Shown here: piece by piece, positions 2,697-7,265 of the stretch
Numbering within the stretch: the first letter of the stretch is position 1
Layout of the letters: every line of letters starts with the position of its first letter
IMG/VR virus record: IMGVR_UViG_2609459803_000004
DNA from: a virus
Taxonomy: Duplodnaviria > Heunggongvirae > Uroviricota > Caudoviricetes
Length of the DNA: 7,265 nt
Strand: one strand, 5' to 3'
Program-made: the position numbers and the translations under genes
The notes under the pieces: generated by a model
Told to the model about the DNA's origin: nothing
The model's database searches: none
Seen by the model: only the letters and a program-made list of their open reading frames with translations

Positions 2697-2775
2697 GCCA
2701 CTGCTTTTCTTTGATGTCCCCATTTTGTGGAGCCCATCAACCCCGCCATTTCGGTTCAAGGTTGATGGGTTTTTT
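2697..2775 (+). ncRNA. rybB: RybB small regulatory RNA (sigma-E-dependent, Hfq-binding repressor of outer-membrane protein mRNAs)
   Basis: Sequence gccactgcttttctttgatgtcccc... matches the RybB sRNA as I recall it, including the conserved 5' seed. It ends in a 10-bp perfect stem (cccatcaacc 2733-2742 / ggttgatggg 2760-2769) plus a T6 run (2770-2775). Position downstream of ybjL on the same strand as in E. coli. Confidence 0.85.
2733..2775 (+). terminator. Intrinsic terminator of rybB
   Basis: 10-bp perfect GC-rich stem with an internally paired loop, followed by tttttt. Confidence 0.8.
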
Positions 2776-2833
2776 GTTGCCTGAAATTTAAGCTGTTTAA
2801 AATCATGATGTTAGAAGCACTGTTTTTTAACGA

Positions 2834-2855: not shown

Positions 2856-3074
2856 TCAAAGAGAGAGCGCCACCTGTCCTGATTTCATTGGATGCGGCTG
2901 AACCGGATTTGACTCTTTTGGCGTTGCAATCGAACGAACAAAAGTTTCATGGGTAACAAAAGTATGGCTGCAGTTAATGTTCTGGCACTGGTTGTAACGC
3001 TCTTTGGTCAATGAAGATACCTGAAAACTGCTGCGAGTATGGGCGGCACTTCCACACAGTGGGCAAATCATCAT
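2856..3074 (-). CDS. ogr: Ogr/Delta-family zinc-finger late-gene transcriptional activator
   Basis: Translation MICPLCGSAAHTRSS...KERYNQCQNINCSHTF... carries the C-x2-C...C-x4-C zinc-finger pattern of P2 Ogr. Proposed ATG at 3074 has a GGGAGA Shine-Dalgarno 9 nt upstream and gives 72 aa, the size I recall for P2 Ogr. The ORF track's longer version starts at GTG 3107. Confidence 0.85.
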   Translation of the reverse strand: MMICPLCGSAAHTRSSFQVSSLTKERYNQCQNINCSHTFVTHETFVRSIATPKESNPVQPHPMKSGQVALSL

Positions 3075-3164
3075 TTTTCGAGTTCTCCCCATTTTTGCTA
3101 AATTCACAATAATGATACCGCATTATTCCATTTTGCAAACTTAAAAGTTCTCCATTGCGAAGAA

Positions 3165-3635
3165 TCATTCCATTTCGAAATCATCAATCCTCACTTCAAG
3201 CTCCAGACTGGTCGTAAAACCGTTATCCGGGCTGACGGTATGCGTCAGAGTCGTAATGGTCCATTCCGCATCATCTATCGGCTGTTTAAAACCACTGACC
3301 TTCACAGGCATTTCCGTGTAGAGATCTGCCCGCCCTTCTGCCAGTTGTAGCGAGAATGACGCAACGCCACGTTGCAGGCGTTCCCACTGCATTTTCGCCG
3401 CCCGTTCGGCGTTGCTCCGGTTGGCATAGGTGCGATTAAGTACCAGCACGTTTTCATCTGTACCCACCAGGTAATCGCCCTGCTTCGCTTCCGGCTCTTT
3501 CTTCTGCTTCTTAGTCCTGCGCTTACGCTTCACCGTGGTGCTTTCTTTCTTCGCGGGTTCACCAGGCGTAACCTTGCTGCCAGTTCCCGGCACTCTTTTT
3601 TGCTCATACTGTGCAGGTAATCGTGCAACTCCTTG
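3165..3635 (-). pseudogene. 3' fragment of P2-family tail gene D (gpD C-terminal ~150 residues), no intact 5' end
   Basis: Lys/Arg-rich stretch followed by DYLVGT..NVL...YAN...RAAK...QRGVA.F...GFK..ID...W pattern, which matches my recollection of the gpD C-terminus. Sits immediately upstream of ogr on the same strand, as D precedes ogr in P2. The frame is open up to a stop at 3636-3638 and overlaps the end of the gene-A fragment in another frame. Confidence 0.6.
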
Positions 3636-4351
3636 TCATCCATGCGGGTAATATCCGTTCTGGTGTCCCCATCAGCTGATTTATCTTTCTCCTGTTGGTT
3701 CAAATTTTCAGCAAGGGGACAGTTATTGCCACGAGTCCAAGGGGCGCAAGCGCCCTGGTCGGCTACCGCCTCCTGAACGTCAACGGCCTTACGAACCATT
3801 TTCCACTTCACTGCATGAGTGCAGATCTTGCCCTCTGAAATGGGTGACCAGATGCCATAAATACGAATACCGTGATCGCCATAGGCGGTCGGCTCTTCGT
3901 TGATTTCATAAGCGGTTCTGATGAGGTGATATTTACGGGGAACCAGTACGCCGCCCTGCTTCATGATGTAGGAGGCAAAACAACCAGCATCAGCAGCAGC
4001 CAGGATGGCATCAAGGCGCGGGTTATCCAGTACCGGCGCACCTGCTTTTTTGTCCCCCTGTTGCCTTGCCGCCTGACCAGCCAGCAATCGCAGTTCACGG
4101 TAAGCCTGACGCCCCGGAATGCCAAAGAAGCGGAATTGCTGAACACGATGCAGAGACGCCCAGGCATTAACGTATTCAGCGTTATCACGCAGGGATTTAC
4201 CCGTTTCCTTGCTGATCTCACCAGCCAGACCACGCCCGTCAATGTTCTTACTGATGTATTTCGCGATGTAGCTTGTTGGCGTACCTTTGCGCGGGTTTGC
4301 CGGGCTTTGCTTTACCAGCAGCGATGCAAATGATGGTTCTTTCGTCAGCAT
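3530..4351 (-). pseudogene. Truncated gene-A-type rolling-circle replication initiator (retains the Tyr catalytic motif, lacks the N-terminal HUH part)
   Basis: Motif [14 protein letters not shown] matches the double-tyrosine active-site motif of phiX174/P2 gpA-type initiators (YxxKYxxK). No HUH motif lies upstream within the ORF. An ATG at 4351 has a GAGG Shine-Dalgarno overlapping the cII stop codon; the ORF track starts at GTG 4381. The 3' end runs out of frame into the D fragment. Confidence 0.7.
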
Positions 4352-4358
4352 AAGTACC

Positions 4359-4874
4359 TCACAGCAAACCAAATGAAGCACCGAGGCCAGTCACGGTATC
4401 AACTGCACTCGCCATCGCAGGGTTAGCCTGTAAACGGGCCTGCAATGAAACAGCAGCCAACGCCATCAGTCGTGTTACAGAGTTAATGCTGCTGATAGCA
4501 TCACGACGGCCTGCACTGGTTTTTACATCGCCAGATGCCGCACCTGCAGCAACACGCCCGATCTCTGCGGTTGCACTCATGACGTAATGTGGCAGTTTCT
4601 CTTTTGCCACCTCATTAATCGGTACACATGGCAGGCAGTGAATCTGAGCCAGAAAACCATCTACTAGCGTTGAATCTTCAGTCAGATCGGTAAGCAACCA
4701 GATTTCTGGTGCGGTTAATAAATGAGGTTGAGCTGGGTTCAGCTTGTTCCGCAGAATCTGCACATTCATGCCTGCACGTTCTGCCAGTTGCACCAGGTTG
4801 TGGCGCAGTGCGAATGCACGACAGGCTTCATCAAAATGTGGATGTTTGGAAACTTGGTAATCAAACATAGTCAA
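4359..4874 (-). CDS. cII: Phage 186-type CII lysogeny-establishment activator
   Basis: 171-aa ORF; translation ([19 protein letters not shown]...[27 protein letters not shown]...) matches my recollection of 186 CII (about 169 aa) along its length. GAGG Shine-Dalgarno 8 nt upstream of the ATG at 4874. Confidence 0.8.
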
Positions 4875-4887
4875 TGCCTCTGATGTA

Positions 4888-4929
4888 TTTCAGAATCGAA
4901 CTAATTAAGGTTTAGATTGCATTCTGAAA
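4888..4929. promoter_or_regulatory. 9-bp perfect inverted repeat (tttcagaat / attctgaaa) spanning the apl-cII junction
   Basis: Arms at 4888-4896 and 4921-4929, separated by 24 bp, overlapping the apl 3' end and the cII leader. Candidate protein-binding site or RNA structure; no U-run follows, so it is not an intrinsic terminator. Confidence 0.3.
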
Positions 4930-5122
4930 GCGCATCAACGGTCATGGCTGCTATGTTGATCATCACTTTTTCGCGTTTTTTATCTTTGCGCAAACGGTGA
5001 CGGATAAGGCGTCCATCAGCCAACATGTCATTGATAGTATCGATGGACAGCCCTGTCAGCTCGCTATAGCGTTCAATAGTCACATGAGGCGTGGTAAGAG
5101 TGATTGAAATGTTAGGTCTCAT
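4901..5122 (-). CDS. Apl/Cox-like small DNA-binding regulator (excisionase / lytic-side repressor analogue)
   Basis: 73-aa basic ORF with a helix-turn-helix-like segment (ERYSELTGLSIDTINDMLADGRL). It is the first gene of the operon transcribed away from cI, immediately upstream of cII, as apl is in phage 186. Confidence 0.5.
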   Translation of the reverse strand: MRPNISITLTTPHVTIERYSELTGLSIDTINDMLADGRLIRHRLRKDKKREKVMINIAAMTVDALSECNLNLN

Positions 5123-5247
5123 GATGCAACATTCCTCGTTTAATGATGATTAATCAGGACGAATACGAATCGTTTGTATTTTGTGAACACCATAAACATA
5201 CGATCGCACAGTGAAATCGTCAAGACAAAAGTTCACTTGGAGTGACC
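5123..5247. promoter_or_regulatory. Immunity switch region between the apl-like gene and cI (promoters and operators)
   Basis: AT-rich 125-bp region containing the perfect palindrome tgattaatca (5147-5156), the inverted pair gtgaac (5183-5188) / gttcac (5231-5236), and additional gtgaa/gtgac motifs at 5211 and 5242. Confidence 0.5.
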
Positions 5248-5817
5248 ATGAATTTGGAGAAAGGCGGACGAGGCGCTATAGAGCGCATGGTAGAAGCTTA
5301 TGGATTCAAGACTCGACAGGCGTTGTGCGATCATTTAGGAATCTCTAAAAGTACACTCGCCACACGCTACATGCGTGACTCATTCCCAGCAGAATGGGTA
5401 ATCCAGTGCGCCCTTGAAACAGGCACTTCGCTTAATTGGCTCACAACCGGGCATGGTTCAAAGCAAACTTCAGGTAATACAAATACTATGGAAGTTGCTA
5501 AATATGTATTATCTGATGGGGCTTTGTGTGAAGACGGTTTTTATATTTTCGATAGAGAATTTCTACCGTCGGCATTCAAGAATCTTTTTGTAATCACAGA
5601 TAATAATTCTGAATTTATTTGTGATAAGGAATTTGATGATATACGTGATGGTAAATGGGTAATAAGTATTGATGGCGAAATAACGATCCGTGACATTACT
5701 CGTTTACCCGGTGGAAGAATCTTCGTCGAGGGTGGAAACAGAGCCTTCGAATGTAAGATAGAAGACATTGAAATAATTGGTAAAATTATAAGTTTAACAG
5801 TCAAGTATGTTAAATAG
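5248..5817 (+). CDS. cI: Phage 186-type CI immunity repressor (N-terminal HTH, C-terminal oligomerisation-type domain)
   Basis: N-terminus ...AYGFKTRQALCDHLGISKSTLATRYMRDSFPAEWVIQCALETGTSLNWLTTGHG matches the 186 CI-family HTH domain as I recall it. Size (189-191 aa) is close to 186 CI. GGAG Shine-Dalgarno 6 nt upstream of the ATG at 5248; the ORF track begins at GTG 5242. Confidence 0.8.
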   Translation: MNLEKGGRGAIERMVEAYGFKTRQALCDHLGISKSTLATRYMRDSFPAEWVIQCALETGTSLNWLTTGHGSKQTSGNTNTMEVAKYVLSDGALCEDGFYIFDREFLPSAFKNLFVITDNNSEFICDKEFDDIRDGKWVISIDGEITIRDITRLPGGRIFVEGGNRAFECKIEDIEIIGKIISLTVKYVK

Positions 5818-5832
5818 TACCGGGAGGAAACT

Positions 5833-6024
5833 ATGCTTGGTAAGGTATTTTTTGTGGTTTTATCATGTTCTTTGTTATTAAACCCACTAACTACCTATGC
5901 TAGAAATTATCCCTGCTCAGGGAAAAAGGGAGGTGTTTCTCACTGTACCTCAGATGGCAAATTCGTTTGCAATGATGGAACTATTAGTAAATCCAAAAAA
6001 ATCTGTACTAAAAACTCACGATAA
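5833..6024 (+). CDS. Small secreted cationic Cys-rich protein of unknown function
   Basis: 63-aa ORF with a strong GGGAGGA Shine-Dalgarno 4 nt upstream. Predicted signal peptide ([23 protein letters not shown], AxA-like cleavage after TYA), then a ~40-aa Lys-rich mature peptide with 4 Cys. AT-rich, and placed between cI and int. Confidence 0.55.
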
Positions 6025-6212
6025 CTTTTGCTTTTATATCTGCGTCTAAAATAAAAATGAGCCGCAGGTTAACCGCAAAAGTTACATGCTCACATAGCAA
6101 AAAGAATAGCCAACTTCATTATGGCTTCAGTGAGATGTATGGTCGTAGGATTTCATACATTGACACTGGTTATACATACAGTAAAAATGCTCTCTACTGG
6201 AGGGCATTTTTT

Positions 6213-7265
6213 ATGGCAGTACGAAAACTCACCACAGGGAAATGGCTTTGCGAATGTTACCCCGCCGGACGAAGTGGGCGTCGTGTGCGTAAACAATTCG
6301 CCACCAAAGGCGAAGCTCTGGCTTTTGAGCGTCACACTATGGAAGAAACCGAATCAAAGCCATGGCTGGGCGAATCAGTGGATCGTCGAACCCTGAAAGA
6401 CGTGGTTGAGCTATGGTTCAAACTACATGGTAAATCTCTGACTGCTGGGCAGCATGTCTATGACAAATTGCTGCTGATGGTTGGCGCTCTGGGCAATCCT
6501 CTTGCAACCGATCTCACCTCTAAAATGTTTGCCCACTATCGAGATAAACGCCTGACAGGCGAGATCTACTTCAGCGAGAAATGGAAGAAAGGAGCAAGCC
6601 CGGTCACCATTAACCTGGAGCAAAGCTATCTAAGTAGTGTTTTTAGCGAACTATCCCGTCTGGGCGAATGGTCGTATCCGAACCCACTGGAGAACATGCG
6701 AAAATTCACCATCGCAGAAAAAGAGATGGCATGGCTTACCCATGAGCAGATTGTTGAATTACTGGCTGATTGCAAACGTCAGGACCCAATTCTAGCACTG
6801 GTAGTTAAGATATGCTTAAGCACAGGCGCACGCTGGCGAGAAGCCGTAAATCTTACTCGTTCACAGGTGACCAAATACCGAATTACCTTTGTAAGAACGA
6901 AGGGGAAGAAAAACAGAAGTATCCCTATCAGTAAAGAGCTTTACGAAGAGATCATGGCGCTTGATGGATTCAATTTCTTCACAGACTGCTATTTTCAATT
7001 TTTATCCGTGATGGAAAAAACGTCTATCGTGCTCCCTCGCGGTCAACTCACACACGTTCTGCGCCATACGTTTGCGGCGCACTTCATGATGTCGGGTGGA
7101 AACATTCTGGCCTTACAAAAAATTCTCGGACACCACGATATAAAAATGACTATGCGTTACGCACATCTGGCACCGGATCATCTGGAAACGGCGCTCCGTT
7201 TCAATCCTCTGGCAACGCTGCCAAGTGGCGACAAAGTGGCGGCAGCGGTTGGCATTACCCCGTAA
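6213..7265 (+). CDS. int: P2-family tyrosine integrase
   Basis: N-terminus MAVRKLTTGKWLCECYP...RVRKQFATKGEALAFE and C-terminal catalytic region (LSTGARWREA; HVLRHTFAAHFMMSGGNILALQKILGH...MRYAHLAP with the R, H-x-x-R and Y residues) match P2 Int-type recombinases. GGAGGG Shine-Dalgarno 8 nt upstream of the ATG at 6213. The ORF track's 402-aa version from 6057 is probably a spurious N-terminal extension. Confidence 0.9.
   Translation: MAVRKLTTGKWLCECYPAGRSGRRVRKQFATKGEALAFERHTMEETESKPWLGESVDRRTLKDVVELWFKLHGKSLTAGQHVYDKLLLMVGALGNPLATDLTSKMFAHYRDKRLTGEIYFSEKWKKGASPVTINLEQSYLSSVFSELSRLGEWSYPNPLENMRKFTIAEKEMAWLTHEQIVELLADCKRQDPILALVVKICLSTGARWREAVNLTRSQVTKYRITFVRTKGKKNRSIPISKELYEEIMALDGFNFFTDCYFQFLSVMEKTSIVLPRGQLTHVLRHTFAAHFMMSGGNILALQKILGHHDIKMTMRYAHLAPDHLETALRFNPLATLPSGDKVAAAVGITP
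7226..7247. repeat. Right copy of the 22-bp direct repeat (tggcgacaaagtggcggcagcg); candidate att core inside the int 3' end
   Basis: 21 of 22 identity with 2834-2855. Lies in the codons for ...GDKVAAA, 6 codons before the int stop. Confidence 0.5.

What the first reader, a model, noticed from the sequence alone, without database searches (positions are those of the whole stretch)
5833..6024. Uncharacterised cationic Cys-rich secreted peptide gene in the lysogenic cI-int operon
A 63-aa ORF with one of the strongest Shine-Dalgarno sequences in the window sits between cI and int, so it should be co-transcribed with the repressor in the lysogenic state. It has a Sec-type signal peptide and a ~40-aa mature peptide with 4 Cys and many Lys ([40 protein letters not shown]), consistent with a disulfide-stabilised periplasmic or exported peptide. 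Position and AT-rich composition are typical of a moron. Candidate functions are superinfection exclusion at the envelope (analogous to the small Cor/Llp-type exclusion proteins), a receptor-blocking factor, or an antimicrobial/bacteriocin-like peptide. I cannot assign it to a known family from memory.
Basis: partly seen in the sequence, partly recalled or inferred. Interest (0 to 1): 0.6.

Follow-up and report, generated by a model that had tools for sequence, protein, structure and literature searches.

The report
Prophage-borne YdcA-family secreted mini-protein gene
The 63-codon gene between the repressor and integrase of this defective E. coli prophage is real and conserved, but it belongs to the already catalogued YdcA family of small exported disulfide-bonded proteins; its function is untested, and its only solved relative is a subunit of the Legionella type IV secretion machine.

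Summary
ORF 5833-6024 (+) has a GGGAGG Shine-Dalgarno, lies 15 nt after cI and 188 nt before int, and encodes a signal peptide plus a 40-aa cationic, 4-Cys peptide. It is not unassignable. It is an exact copy of RefSeq WP_000900883.1, a "YdcA family protein" (NCBIfam NF007463, 115.8 bits against a cutoff of 93; Pfam PF27300; PHROG 6000). About 12% of complete E. coli genomes carry it, including BL21. It is under strong purifying selection (15 synonymous against 2 non-synonymous variants; no broken copy in 84).

The cI-int junction is a variable cargo slot. It is empty in phage 186. Sibling prophages hold ydcA plus a PifA-like KAP NTPase, or PD-Lambda-1. Haemophilus phage HP2 has an unannotated ydcA there.

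The YdcA domain is homologous to each lobe of Legionella Dis2 (PDB 7MUC), an outer-membrane-proximal Dot/Icm subunit. In Methylococcales it also occurs as an N-terminal module of secreted nucleases, where it alternates with lipoprotein anchors.

Best reading: an autonomous, lysogeny-expressed periplasmic docking module. The biological effect is unknown. Novelty is low for the gene and moderate for the Dis2 and nuclease links.

The parts
5822..5827 (+). Shine-Dalgarno GGGAGG, 5 nt upstream of the ATG
   Evidence: read directly from the sequence
5833..6024 (+). ydcA-family gene (63 codons plus stop), identical to RefSeq WP_000900883.1
   Evidence: NF007463, 115.8 bits, cutoff 93; phrog_6000, 1.9e-34
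5833..5901 (+). predicted Sec signal peptide (aa 1-23, [23 protein letters not shown]), SPase I type
   Evidence: hydrophobicity and the -3/-1 rule; this region is variable across homologues while conservation starts at the cut site. Heuristic only; SignalP was not run
5902..6021 (+). mature 40-aa cationic peptide with the YdcA domain ([12 protein letters not shown]...[15 protein letters not shown]; Cys 28, 38, 46, 58)
   Evidence: invariant columns; AF2 pLDDT about 90 for residues 30-55; homology to the Dis2 lobes
5242..5817 (+). cI repressor, first gene of the lysogenic operon
   Evidence: Pfam Phage_CI_repr and Phage_CI_C; operon layout by analogy with the phage 186 annotation
6025..6212 (.). 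AT-rich spacer that forms the variable cargo slot. Bases 6017-6123 are unique to this arrangement; sibling prophages carry a 1.3-kb KAP NTPase gene here
   Evidence: blastn breakpoints at window 6016 and 6124 against L010 4184 and 5520
6213..7265 (+). integrase (runs off the window end)
   Evidence: Pfam Int_N and Phage_integrase; RefSeq start in the identical region
4901..5122 (-). apl/cox-like excisionase-repressor, divergent from cI (the switch region lies at 5123-5241)
   Evidence: phrog_575, 4.8e-30
4359..4874 (-). cII-like activator
   Evidence: Pfam Phage_CP76, 6.7e-42

Best explanation
The ORF is a functional single-gene moron of a 186-like (Peduoviridae) prophage remnant. It is transcribed with cI from the lysogenic promoter(s) and translated from its own strong SD. 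It is exported by Sec and cut by signal peptidase I. In the periplasm it is locked by two disulfides into a roughly 35-residue cationic hairpin domain of the YdcA family (PF27300). It has no catalytic motif and no conserved partner gene. It most likely acts as a stand-alone docking or binding module that attaches to a conserved component on the periplasmic, outer-membrane-proximal side of the envelope. Its duplicated relative Dis2 docks in this way on the lipoproteins DotC, DotD and DotK. YdcA modules likewise take the place of lipid anchors on secreted nucleases. In the lysogen this would alter or occupy an envelope site to the benefit of the host and prophage, through stress tolerance or exclusion of incoming DNA or phage. 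Shown: gene reality, family membership, conservation, position in the cargo slot, homology to Dis2, and the nuclease fusions. Inferred: co-transcription, export, disulfides, the docking function, and the phenotype.
For: Identity and selection: NF007463 at 115.8 bits against a cutoff of 93; PF27300 YdcA; 4 Cys and P27, S29, K32, G33, G34, F44, G49, S52, S54, K55 invariant in 35 homologues; 15 synonymous against 2 non-synonymous variants and no broken allele in 84 copies; the ORF DNA is present in 648 of 5426 complete E. coli genomes. Export: 168 of 182 family proteins have an N-terminal h-region, and the domain starts at median residue 27. Operon: same strand as cI and int, a 15-nt gap after cI, and no terminator-like site on the + strand in 4800-6400; phage 186 annotates cI-int as one pL/pE operon ending in a terminator after orf69. 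Autonomy: the neighbours of 61 diverse viral-contig copies are heterogeneous (cI, RdgC, HicB, tape measure/minor tail, DUF4236, int, GemA). Docking role: homology to both lobes of Dis2 (PDB 7MUC_AN) is supported by a profile HMM at E 1.1e-4, the mature peptide alone at E 2.2e-4, Foldseek on the AF2 model at prob 0.98, and hhalign at 93% with score 34.8 against a maximum of 15.7 in 100 column shuffles. Dis2 lies next to the outer membrane and contacts DotK, DotC and DotD (PMC8486379, PMC12716638). In 66 orthologous Endonuclease_NS genes, mostly from Methylococcales, the N-terminus is a YdcA module in 23, a lipobox in at least 12, a YHYH-like motif in 7, and a plain signal peptide or truncated start in the rest. 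There is also a fusion to SNase, and tandem 2-3x repeats exist. Host benefit: deleting the chromosomal paralogue ydcA sensitised E. coli W to 3-hydroxypropionate (PMC7642389).
Confidence: 0.5

Rival explanations
1. Superinfection or DNA-entry exclusion. The periplasmic peptide blocks a step that incoming phages (or conjugative or transforming DNA) need at the outer membrane or periplasm, and so protects the lysogen. This is a specific version of the docking model.
For: It lies in the lysogenic operon, in a slot that otherwise holds known or candidate defence genes: PDC-S20/PifA-like KAP NTPase and PD-Lambda-1. The region between integrase and primase is reported as a minor P2 defence hotspot (PMC13586616). 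It is carried by unrelated temperate phages and by small mobilisable plasmids. It is retained intact in degraded prophages, including BL21.
Against: It is not in PADLOC. A chromosomal non-prophage paralogue lies at the cybB-hokB locus, so the family is not confined to mobile elements. The 50-75% identity of the core across distant proteobacteria is unusual for a receptor-specific blocker. No phenotype data exist.
Confidence: 0.2
2. Periplasmic or extracellular polyanion (DNA) binding module. The cationic hairpin binds nucleic acid. When free it would sequester or mark DNA in the periplasm. When fused it raises the substrate affinity of secreted nucleases.
For: Recurrent fusion to two unrelated nuclease folds: Endonuclease_NS in 4 clusters and SNase in 1. 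An SNase gene lies 24 nt upstream of ydcA in viral contig L113. There are fusions to the PBCV basic adaptor domain and to Lys/Ala-rich tails. The domain has a median net charge of +4 and invariant K32 and K55. Many phage hosts are naturally competent genera: Haemophilus, Moraxella, Acinetobacter (the competence is from general knowledge).
Against: The same position in orthologous nucleases is often a lipoprotein anchor, which points to localisation rather than substrate binding. Dis2 is a protein-docking structural subunit. No known DNA-binding fold matches.
Confidence: 0.15
3. Orphaned half of a two-gene YdcA + KAP NTPase (PDC-S20, PifA-like) abortive-infection module. YdcA would be the periplasmic sensor or anchor for the membrane NTPase, and in this window it has lost its partner.
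For: The order cI-ydcA-KAP-int recurs in E. coli and Klebsiella prophages, with 11-nt or overlapping junctions. It is kept even when the KAP proteins are only 55% identical. The KAP protein hits PADLOC PDC-S20 at 1.3e-171 and PifA at 3.1e-15. The window carries a 107-bp unique stub exactly where KAP sits.
Against: The ydcA-only arrangement is the common one: 592 E. coli genomes have full-length matches, under purifying selection. PADLOC treats PDC-S20 as a single-gene candidate. YdcA occurs in dozens of contexts without KAP. All the KAP pairings seen lie in the same slot of related prophages, so the linkage is not independent evidence.
Confidence: 0.1
4. Secreted antimicrobial peptide or bacteriocin, or a periplasmic protease inhibitor.
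For: It is small, cationic and disulfide-rich. There are weak sequence resemblances to Pin-II proteinase inhibitors (E 0.07-0.76).
Against: No immunity, export or modification gene lies beside it here or in other contexts. Relatives are structural or accessory domains. The Pin-II hits are not significant, and Pfam reports no inhibitor family. A toxic periplasmic peptide made constitutively in about 12% of E. coli, and as a chromosomal paralogue at the cybB-hokB locus, is implausible.
Confidence: 0.04

Closest known systems
E. coli chromosomal YdcA (b1419; 57 aa, 'periplasmic protein')
   Same: Same family (NCBIfam PRK10040 models; Pfam PF27300) and the same architecture: a signal peptide followed by one 4-Cys domain. 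The core motif PCSGxKGG[IV]SHC...KFVCNDG[ST]ISxSKKxC is shared, at 51% overall identity.
   Different: It is chromosomal, lying between cybB and hokB rather than in a prophage. It belongs to a different sub-model: the window ORF scores 68.5 bits on NF007462 against 115.8 on NF007463. It is reported to be YdcI-controlled and acid-induced, and its deletion sensitises E. coli W to 3-HP (PMC7642389). The molecular function is equally unknown.
Legionella pneumophila Dis2 (Lpg0823; PDB 7MUC/7MUD chain AN), subunit of the Dot/Icm T4SS outer-membrane cap
   Same: Each Dis2 lobe is homologous to the YdcA domain. Some Dis2 orthologues carry precomputed PF27300 hits. Both are exported, disulfide-pinned, and lack enzymatic motifs.
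N-terminal YdcA modules of secreted nucleases (Endonuclease_NS of Methylococcales; one SNase fusion)
   Same: The same domain directly follows a signal peptide and is joined to the enzyme by a flexible linker.
   Different: There it is an accessory module of an enzyme. Here it is the whole protein. In orthologues it is interchangeable with a lipobox or a YHYH-like motif.
Unannotated ORF of Haemophilus phages HP2 and S2 (L002 3420-3602)
   Same: It lies in the same slot, immediately after cI and upstream of int, in a P2-like phage. It is 60 aa with the same motif.
   Different: It is followed by a second cargo gene (orf1, a secreted tRNA_anti-like OB-fold protein). It is not annotated in the phage record.
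Lysogenic-conversion envelope proteins (lambda Bor/Lom, T5 Llp, phi80/N15 Cor)
   Same: A works-like analogy only, from general knowledge: small envelope proteins made by (pro)phages that change the cell surface.
   Different: There is no sequence relation. Llp, Cor and Bor are lipoproteins, and this ORF has no conserved lipobox.

Membership tests
YdcA family (Pfam PF27300; NCBIfam NF007463 / PRK10040.1-2; PHROG 6000) | Score above the curated model cutoff | tested here: met
   NF007463 scores 115.8 bits against a cutoff of 93, E 5.3e-34. phrog_6000 E 1.9e-34. Homologues carry PF27300 'YdcA'. RefSeq names the identical protein 'YdcA family protein'. The local Pfam copy lacks PF27300.
YdcA family (Pfam PF27300; NCBIfam NF007463 / PRK10040.1-2; PHROG 6000) | Four conserved Cys within PCSGxKGG[IV]xHC-x(3-5)-F[IV]CxDG[ST]xSxSK(K/R)xC | tested here: met
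   C28, C38, C46 and C58, together with P27, S29, K32, G33, G34, F44, G49, S52, S54 and K55, are invariant in 35 sequences (alignment).
YdcA family (Pfam PF27300; NCBIfam NF007463 / PRK10040.1-2; PHROG 6000) | N-terminal Sec signal peptide directly preceding the domain | tested here: met
   The h-region has a Kyte-Doolittle mean of 2.2-2.7, and TYA precedes the predicted cut site. 168 of 182 family proteins share an N-terminal hydrophobic stretch. This is heuristic; SignalP was not available.
Dis2 (Lpg0823)-type T4BSS outer-membrane-cap subunit | Sequence and fold homology of the lobe | tested here: met
   HMMER E 1.1e-4 and 2.2e-4. Foldseek prob 0.98. hhalign 93% for lobe 1 and 76% for lobe 2, with 0 of 100 shuffles reaching the observed score.
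Dis2 (Lpg0823)-type T4BSS outer-membrane-cap subunit | Two tandem lobes with 10 Cys (five disulfides) | tested here: not met
   The window protein has one lobe with 4 Cys. The Dis2 family has invariant C41, 42, 51, 60, 68, 70, 84, 85, 103 and 112.
Dis2 (Lpg0823)-type T4BSS outer-membrane-cap subunit | Assembly into a Dot/Icm T4SS | not testable with these tools
   No dot/icm genes lie in the window or in the 19-kb surrounding locus. Assembly itself would need biochemistry.
Cor/Llp-type superinfection-exclusion lipoproteins | Lipobox with an invariant lipidated Cys | tested here: not met
   Cys12 (VLSC) sits at position 12. This is too close to the N-terminus under the PROSITE lipobox rule (recalled from general knowledge), and it is absent or in a non-lipobox context in most homologues.
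Cor/Llp-type superinfection-exclusion lipoproteins | Sequence membership | tested here: not met
   No Pfam or PHROG hit other than the unnamed phrog_6000.
Catalogued anti-phage defence systems (PADLOC 2.0) | Match to a defence-protein model | tested here: not met
   0 families for the window ORF and for the 61-aa sibling. The neighbouring KAP NTPase of sibling prophages hits PDC-S20 and PifA.
Bacteriocin / antimicrobial peptide loci | Linked immunity, export or maturation gene | tested here: not met
   The flanking genes are cI and int only. Neighbours elsewhere are heterogeneous. One CdiI immunity-family neighbour was seen among 46 downstream genes; no recurrent immunity, export or maturation family appears.
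Pin-II (potato type II) proteinase inhibitors | Significant sequence match and the 8-Cys repeat | tested here: not met
   PDB hits only at E 0.07-0.76. No Pfam hit. The domain has only 4 Cys.

The most novel reading that the evidence does not exclude
YdcA-type single-lobe proteins may be a pan-proteobacterial class of exported docking modules, of which the supposedly Legionella-specific Dot/Icm subunit Dis2 is a duplicated member. Under this reading the prophage copy is a lysogeny-expressed decoy or blocker. It would occupy a conserved outer-membrane-proximal site, such as a lipoprotein tether or an OmpA-like protein, and thereby exclude incoming phage or conjugative DNA. It might also serve as the periplasmic arm of the PifA-like KAP NTPase found beside it in sibling prophages.
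Probability: 0.12. Interest if true: 0.7.

Novelty: already known. Interest (0 to 1): 0.35.

Why it matters
The gene itself is catalogued, so nothing new is being discovered at the locus. Three points still make it a useful lead.

First, it is one of the commonest accessory genes of 186-like prophages. About 12% of complete E. coli genomes carry it, including the laboratory strain BL21. It is constitutively positioned in the repressor operon, yet no function is known.

Second, the link to Dis2 gives an experimentally solved structural context for an orphan family. It also contradicts the published view that Dis2 is Legionella-specific.

Third, the swap between a YdcA module and a lipid anchor in secreted nucleases gives a concrete, testable hypothesis of envelope retention or docking.

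A short set of experiments in BL21 or K-12 could settle whether this is a new kind of single-peptide lysogenic-conversion or exclusion factor.

Tried and rejected
- **Local Pfam copy:** it lacks PF27300, so it gave only a meaningless GULLO2-like hit at E 0.075.
- **PADLOC:** no model matches the ORF.
- **Weak PDB sequence hits:** Pin-II inhibitors, LDL-receptor repeats and dispersin scored E 0.07-8.7. I judged these to be Cys-rich composition noise.
- **Weak NCBIfam hit:** lpg1681_fam at E 0.11 was not pursued.
- **Lipoprotein reading:** Cys12 is not conserved and sits too close to the N-terminus, so this was rejected.
- **Literature hits for 'ydcA':** most concern unrelated namesakes. From my own knowledge these are the Bacillus rhomboid YdcA and positional gene names in plasmids and the gonococcal genetic island. 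Only PMC7642389 concerns the E. coli paralogue.
- **First structure job:** That sequence was later verified from a genome.
- **First IMG/VR scan:** returned only near-identical copies. It was re-run with a distant first sequence.
- **Dis2 fragment search:** a 46-aa Dis2 fragment returned only two proteins. It was re-run with a longer relative.
- **'Conjugal transfer protein' UniRef name** for the cluster: no T4SS genes lie nearby in the E. coli loci examined, although a small Acinetobacter plasmid copy sits beside a gene annotated TraD. I treated the name as an annotation artefact.
- **E. coli 'plasmid' hits:** they carry chromosomal flanking genes (rcdA, ybjJ) and look like mis-assigned chromosome fragments.

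Full report
**1. What is in the window.**
The window is an E. coli chromosomal segment, matching the 7265-bp IMG/VR contig IMGVR_UViG_2619619133_000004. It carries grxA, ybjM and ybjL, with gene names assigned from the RefSeq annotation of matching genomes and my own knowledge. Next comes the sRNA gene rybB at 2700-2778. After that lies a heavily deleted 186-like (Peduoviridae) prophage:
- ogr (2856-3107, -);
- a tail gene D fragment (3165-3593, -);
- a replication gene A fragment (3530-4381, -);
- cII (4359-4874, -);
- apl/cox (4901-5122, -);
- cI (5242-5817, +);
- the target ORF (5833-6024, +);
- int (6213 to the window end, +).

In other strains the same prophage is intact between ybjL and rcdA. 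BL21 carries a similar remnant.

**2.
The ORF, its GGGAGG Shine-Dalgarno 5 nt upstream, the 15-nt gap after cI, the hydrophobic N-terminus and the Lys-rich 4-Cys C-terminal part are all present.

It is a real gene. The protein scores 115.8 bits on NCBIfam NF007463, whose cutoff is 93. It scores 1.9e-34 on PHROG 6000. An all-against-all HMMER search found 312 representative clusters at E<=1e-3. In 35 diverse homologues the four Cys and ten other residues are invariant, while the N-terminal 23 residues vary freely.

Against the BL21 allele there are 10 synonymous and 1 non-synonymous differences (pN/pS about 0.03). Among 84 copies (9 nucleotide alleles) there are 15 synonymous and 2 non-synonymous variants. 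Both non-synonymous changes lie outside the Cys core, and no copy is disrupted. The ORF DNA is found in 648 of 5426 complete E. coli genomes, 592 of them at full length.

**3. It belongs to a known, named, uncharacterised family.**
RefSeq annotates the identical protein (WP_000900883.1) as "YdcA family protein". The precomputed Pfam family is PF27300 "YdcA". The founding member is the 57-aa chromosomal YdcA, found between cybB and hokB in the E. coli genome examined.

The only functional data I found for that paralogue are these: its deletion sensitised E. coli W to 300 mM 3-hydroxypropionate, and it is reported to be acid-induced under YdcI (PMC7642389). No paper in the searched library discusses the family as such.

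**4. Genomic setting: a cargo slot in the lysogenic operon.**
In phage 186, cI and int abut directly. With orf69 they form one operon driven by pL/pE and ending at a terminator (record annotation). In the window the ORF is on the same strand, and no terminator-like site lies on that strand between 4800 and 6400. Co-transcription with cI is therefore a reasonable inference, but it is not shown.

Comparison with relatives shows that the junction is a variable slot:
- ydcA alone, as here;
- ydcA followed by a 443-aa KAP-family NTPase in E. coli and Klebsiella prophages, which matches PADLOC PDC-S20 (1.3e-171) and PifA (3.1e-15);
- PD-Lambda-1 and no ydcA in phage vB_EcoM-813R9;
- an unrelated 349-aa ORF in Klebsiella phage 4LV2017;
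- in Haemophilus phages HP2 and S2, an unannotated 60-aa ydcA homologue starting at the cI stop, followed by a secreted OB-fold protein and then int.

Homology between the window and the KAP-bearing arrangement breaks at 6016 and resumes at 6124. A recent survey lists the region between integrase and primase as a minor defence hotspot of P2-like phages (PMC13586616). It does not mention YdcA.

**5. The gene is an autonomous moron.**
Homologues occur in Moraxella, Acinetobacter, Haemophilus and Pseudomonas phages. They also occur on Acinetobacter and Rhizobium plasmids, including 4-kb mobilisable plasmids, and in chromosomal non-mobile contexts.

In 61 non-redundant viral-contig contexts the flanking genes are heterogeneous. 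Neighbours include CI repressors, RdgC, HicB, tape measure and minor tail genes, DUF4236, integrases, GemA and DinI. There is thus no obligate partner. The target is probably a host component conserved across proteobacteria, because the 35-residue core stays 50-75% identical from Enterobacteria to Haemophilus, Moraxella, Acinetobacter and Pseudomonas phages and Rhizobium plasmids.

**6. What the domain is: link to Dis2.**
A profile of the family hits one solved structure: chain AN of the Legionella Dot/Icm T4SS (PDB 7MUC/7MUD), at E 1.1e-4. The mature peptide alone, without the signal peptide, gives E 2.2e-4 and aligns to both halves of that chain. The AF2 model (pLDDT 79 overall, about 90 for residues 30-55) finds the same chain by Foldseek at probability 0.98.

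Profile-profile comparison of mature YdcA domains (173 sequences) with mature Dis2 orthologues (30 sequences) gives 93% probability for lobe 1 and 76% for lobe 2. The score is 34.8, against a maximum of 15.7 in 100 column-shuffled controls. Some Dis2 orthologues carry precomputed PF27300 hits.

**7. What the domain is: modules on nucleases.**
Among longer family members the only recurrent enzymatic partners are two unrelated secreted nuclease folds: Endonuclease_NS (4 clusters) and SNase (1). There are also fusions to the PBCV basic adaptor domain, and proteins with two or three tandem YdcA domains.

I examined 66 orthologous Endonuclease_NS genes, mostly from Methylococcales. Their N-terminal module falls into four classes:

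| N-terminal module | Genes |
|---|---|
| YdcA domain (hmmsearch E 1e-7 to 1e-21) | 23 |
| Lipobox-type signal | at least 12 |
| YHYH-like GCH..G.YHCH motif | 7 |
| Plain signal peptide or truncated start | the rest |

A domain that alternates with a lipid anchor at the N-terminus of an exported enzyme is most simply a localisation or retention module. This agrees with the outer-membrane-proximal docking of Dis2.

A substrate-binding (DNA) role is the main alternative. It is favoured by the basic character of the domain (median net charge +4), by the invariant lysines that Dis2 lacks, and by an SNase gene immediately upstream of ydcA in one viral contig (L113).

**8. Most likely mechanism.**
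The peptide is made with CI in the lysogen, exported by Sec, cleaved after TYA and oxidised to two disulfides. It then acts as a free single-lobe docking module on a conserved envelope component on the periplasmic side of the outer membrane. The physiological outcome is not determined; it could be envelope robustness or exclusion of incoming DNA or phage.

| Claim | My estimate |
|---|---|
| Identity, export and moron status | about 0.9 |
| Docking-module mechanism | about 0.5 |
| Specific superinfection-exclusion outcome | about 0.2 |
| DNA-binding alternative | about 0.15 |
| Orphaned partner of the KAP NTPase | about 0.1 |
| Bacteriocin or protease-inhibitor readings | at most 0.05 |

**9. 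Novelty and score.**
The gene is already catalogued: it has an exact RefSeq protein and Pfam, NCBIfam and PHROG families. The finding itself is therefore "already known", with function unknown.

Three things add value: the positional conservation in the cI-int slot from E. coli to Haemophilus P2-like phages, the homology to Dis2, and the module swap with lipid anchors in nucleases. These turn an orphan family into a testable hypothesis. Interest: 0.35.

Noticed in passing
window 2700-2778 (+): RybB sRNA gene (Rfam RF00110, 105 bits) lies about 80 bp from the left end of the prophage remnant (ogr at 2856-3107). The prophage may use the rybB 3' region as its attachment site.
   Followed up: no
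window 3165-4381 (-): The prophage is a deletion remnant. A C-terminal fragment of tail gene D (Phage_GPD positions 199-302) overlaps a fragment carrying only the last 27 positions of the replication gene A profile. All late genes are missing, yet cII-apl-cI-ydcA-int are intact.
   Followed up: partly
L002 3420-3602 (Haemophilus phage HP2, NC_003315; same in S2 and AY027935): An unannotated 60-aa YdcA-family ORF starts at the cI stop codon, upstream of orf1 and int. The public phage records lack this gene.
   Followed up: yes
L010 4198-5529; L013 4198-5529; L256 1489-2832: Sibling 186-like prophages of E. coli and Klebsiella carry a KAP-family P-loop NTPase (PADLOC PDC-S20, PifA-like) immediately after ydcA. 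The junctions are 11-nt or overlapping, and the order holds at 55% KAP identity. This may be a two-gene unit that PADLOC treats as a single gene.
   Followed up: partly
L008 3091-4767 (Escherichia phage vB_EcoM-813R9): The same cI-int slot holds a PD-Lambda-1 defence gene (PADLOC 3.1e-120; DUF4041 + T5orf172) and no ydcA. The slot therefore behaves as a defence or cargo hotspot.
   Followed up: partly
L180-L251 (Methylococcales genomes): Orthologous secreted Endonuclease_NS nucleases have interchangeable N-terminal modules: YdcA domain (23 of 66), lipobox (at least 12), a YHYH-like GCH..G.YHCH motif (7), or a plain signal peptide. Some genomes, such as Methylomicrobium lacus (L216 and L250), hold two paralogues with different N-terminal modules (YHYH-like and none detected).
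   Followed up: yes
PDB 7MUC chain AN; proteins P0237-P0354: Legionella Dis2 (annotated 'neurogenic locus notch') is a tandem duplication of the YdcA domain. Published papers call it Legionella-specific with no structural neighbours. L. pneumophila dis2 lies beside an M23 peptidase, a rhomboid protease, a Wzy_C protein and a glycosyltransferase, not beside dot/icm genes (L257).
   Followed up: yes
L113 2084-2761 (IMG/VR contig): A secreted SNase-type thermonuclease gene lies 24 nt upstream of a ydcA homologue in a viral contig. The association with a nuclease here is by adjacency rather than fusion.
   Followed up: no
proteins P0056, P0058, P0060, P0062 (about 105 aa; P0056 is from Herbaspirillum huttiense): These YdcA variants carry a C-terminal Cys-rich extension that matches the PBCV-specific basic adaptor domain (PF08789; best E 2.6e-4).
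   Followed up: no
window 7221-7265 vs L001 11376-11419 and L019 7882-7926: Relative to UC4224 and BL21, the window lacks about 350-480 bp downstream of int, including a small hypothetical ORF. Homology jumps about 20 nt before the normal int stop, so the int 3' end here may be altered. The window ends before this can be resolved.
   Followed up: no
window 6160-6188 (+): A promoter-like site, TTGACA-17-AAAAAT (10 of 12), lies in the spacer just upstream of the int start. It could give int expression independent of cI-ydcA. It is only a consensus match.
   Followed up: no
window 5833-6021 (protein): There is a weak NCBIfam hit to the Legionella 'lpg1681 family' (E 0.11, residues 17-53). Given the Dis2 link, this might be another distant Legionella relative.
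   Followed up: no
L006 (NZ_CP148400.1, 'plasmid' pZ1323HEC0009-3): This 55-kb E. coli record in the plasmid collection carries the prophage together with the chromosomal genes rcdA, ybjJ, ybjI and mdfA. It looks like a mis-assigned chromosomal fragment.
   Followed up: no
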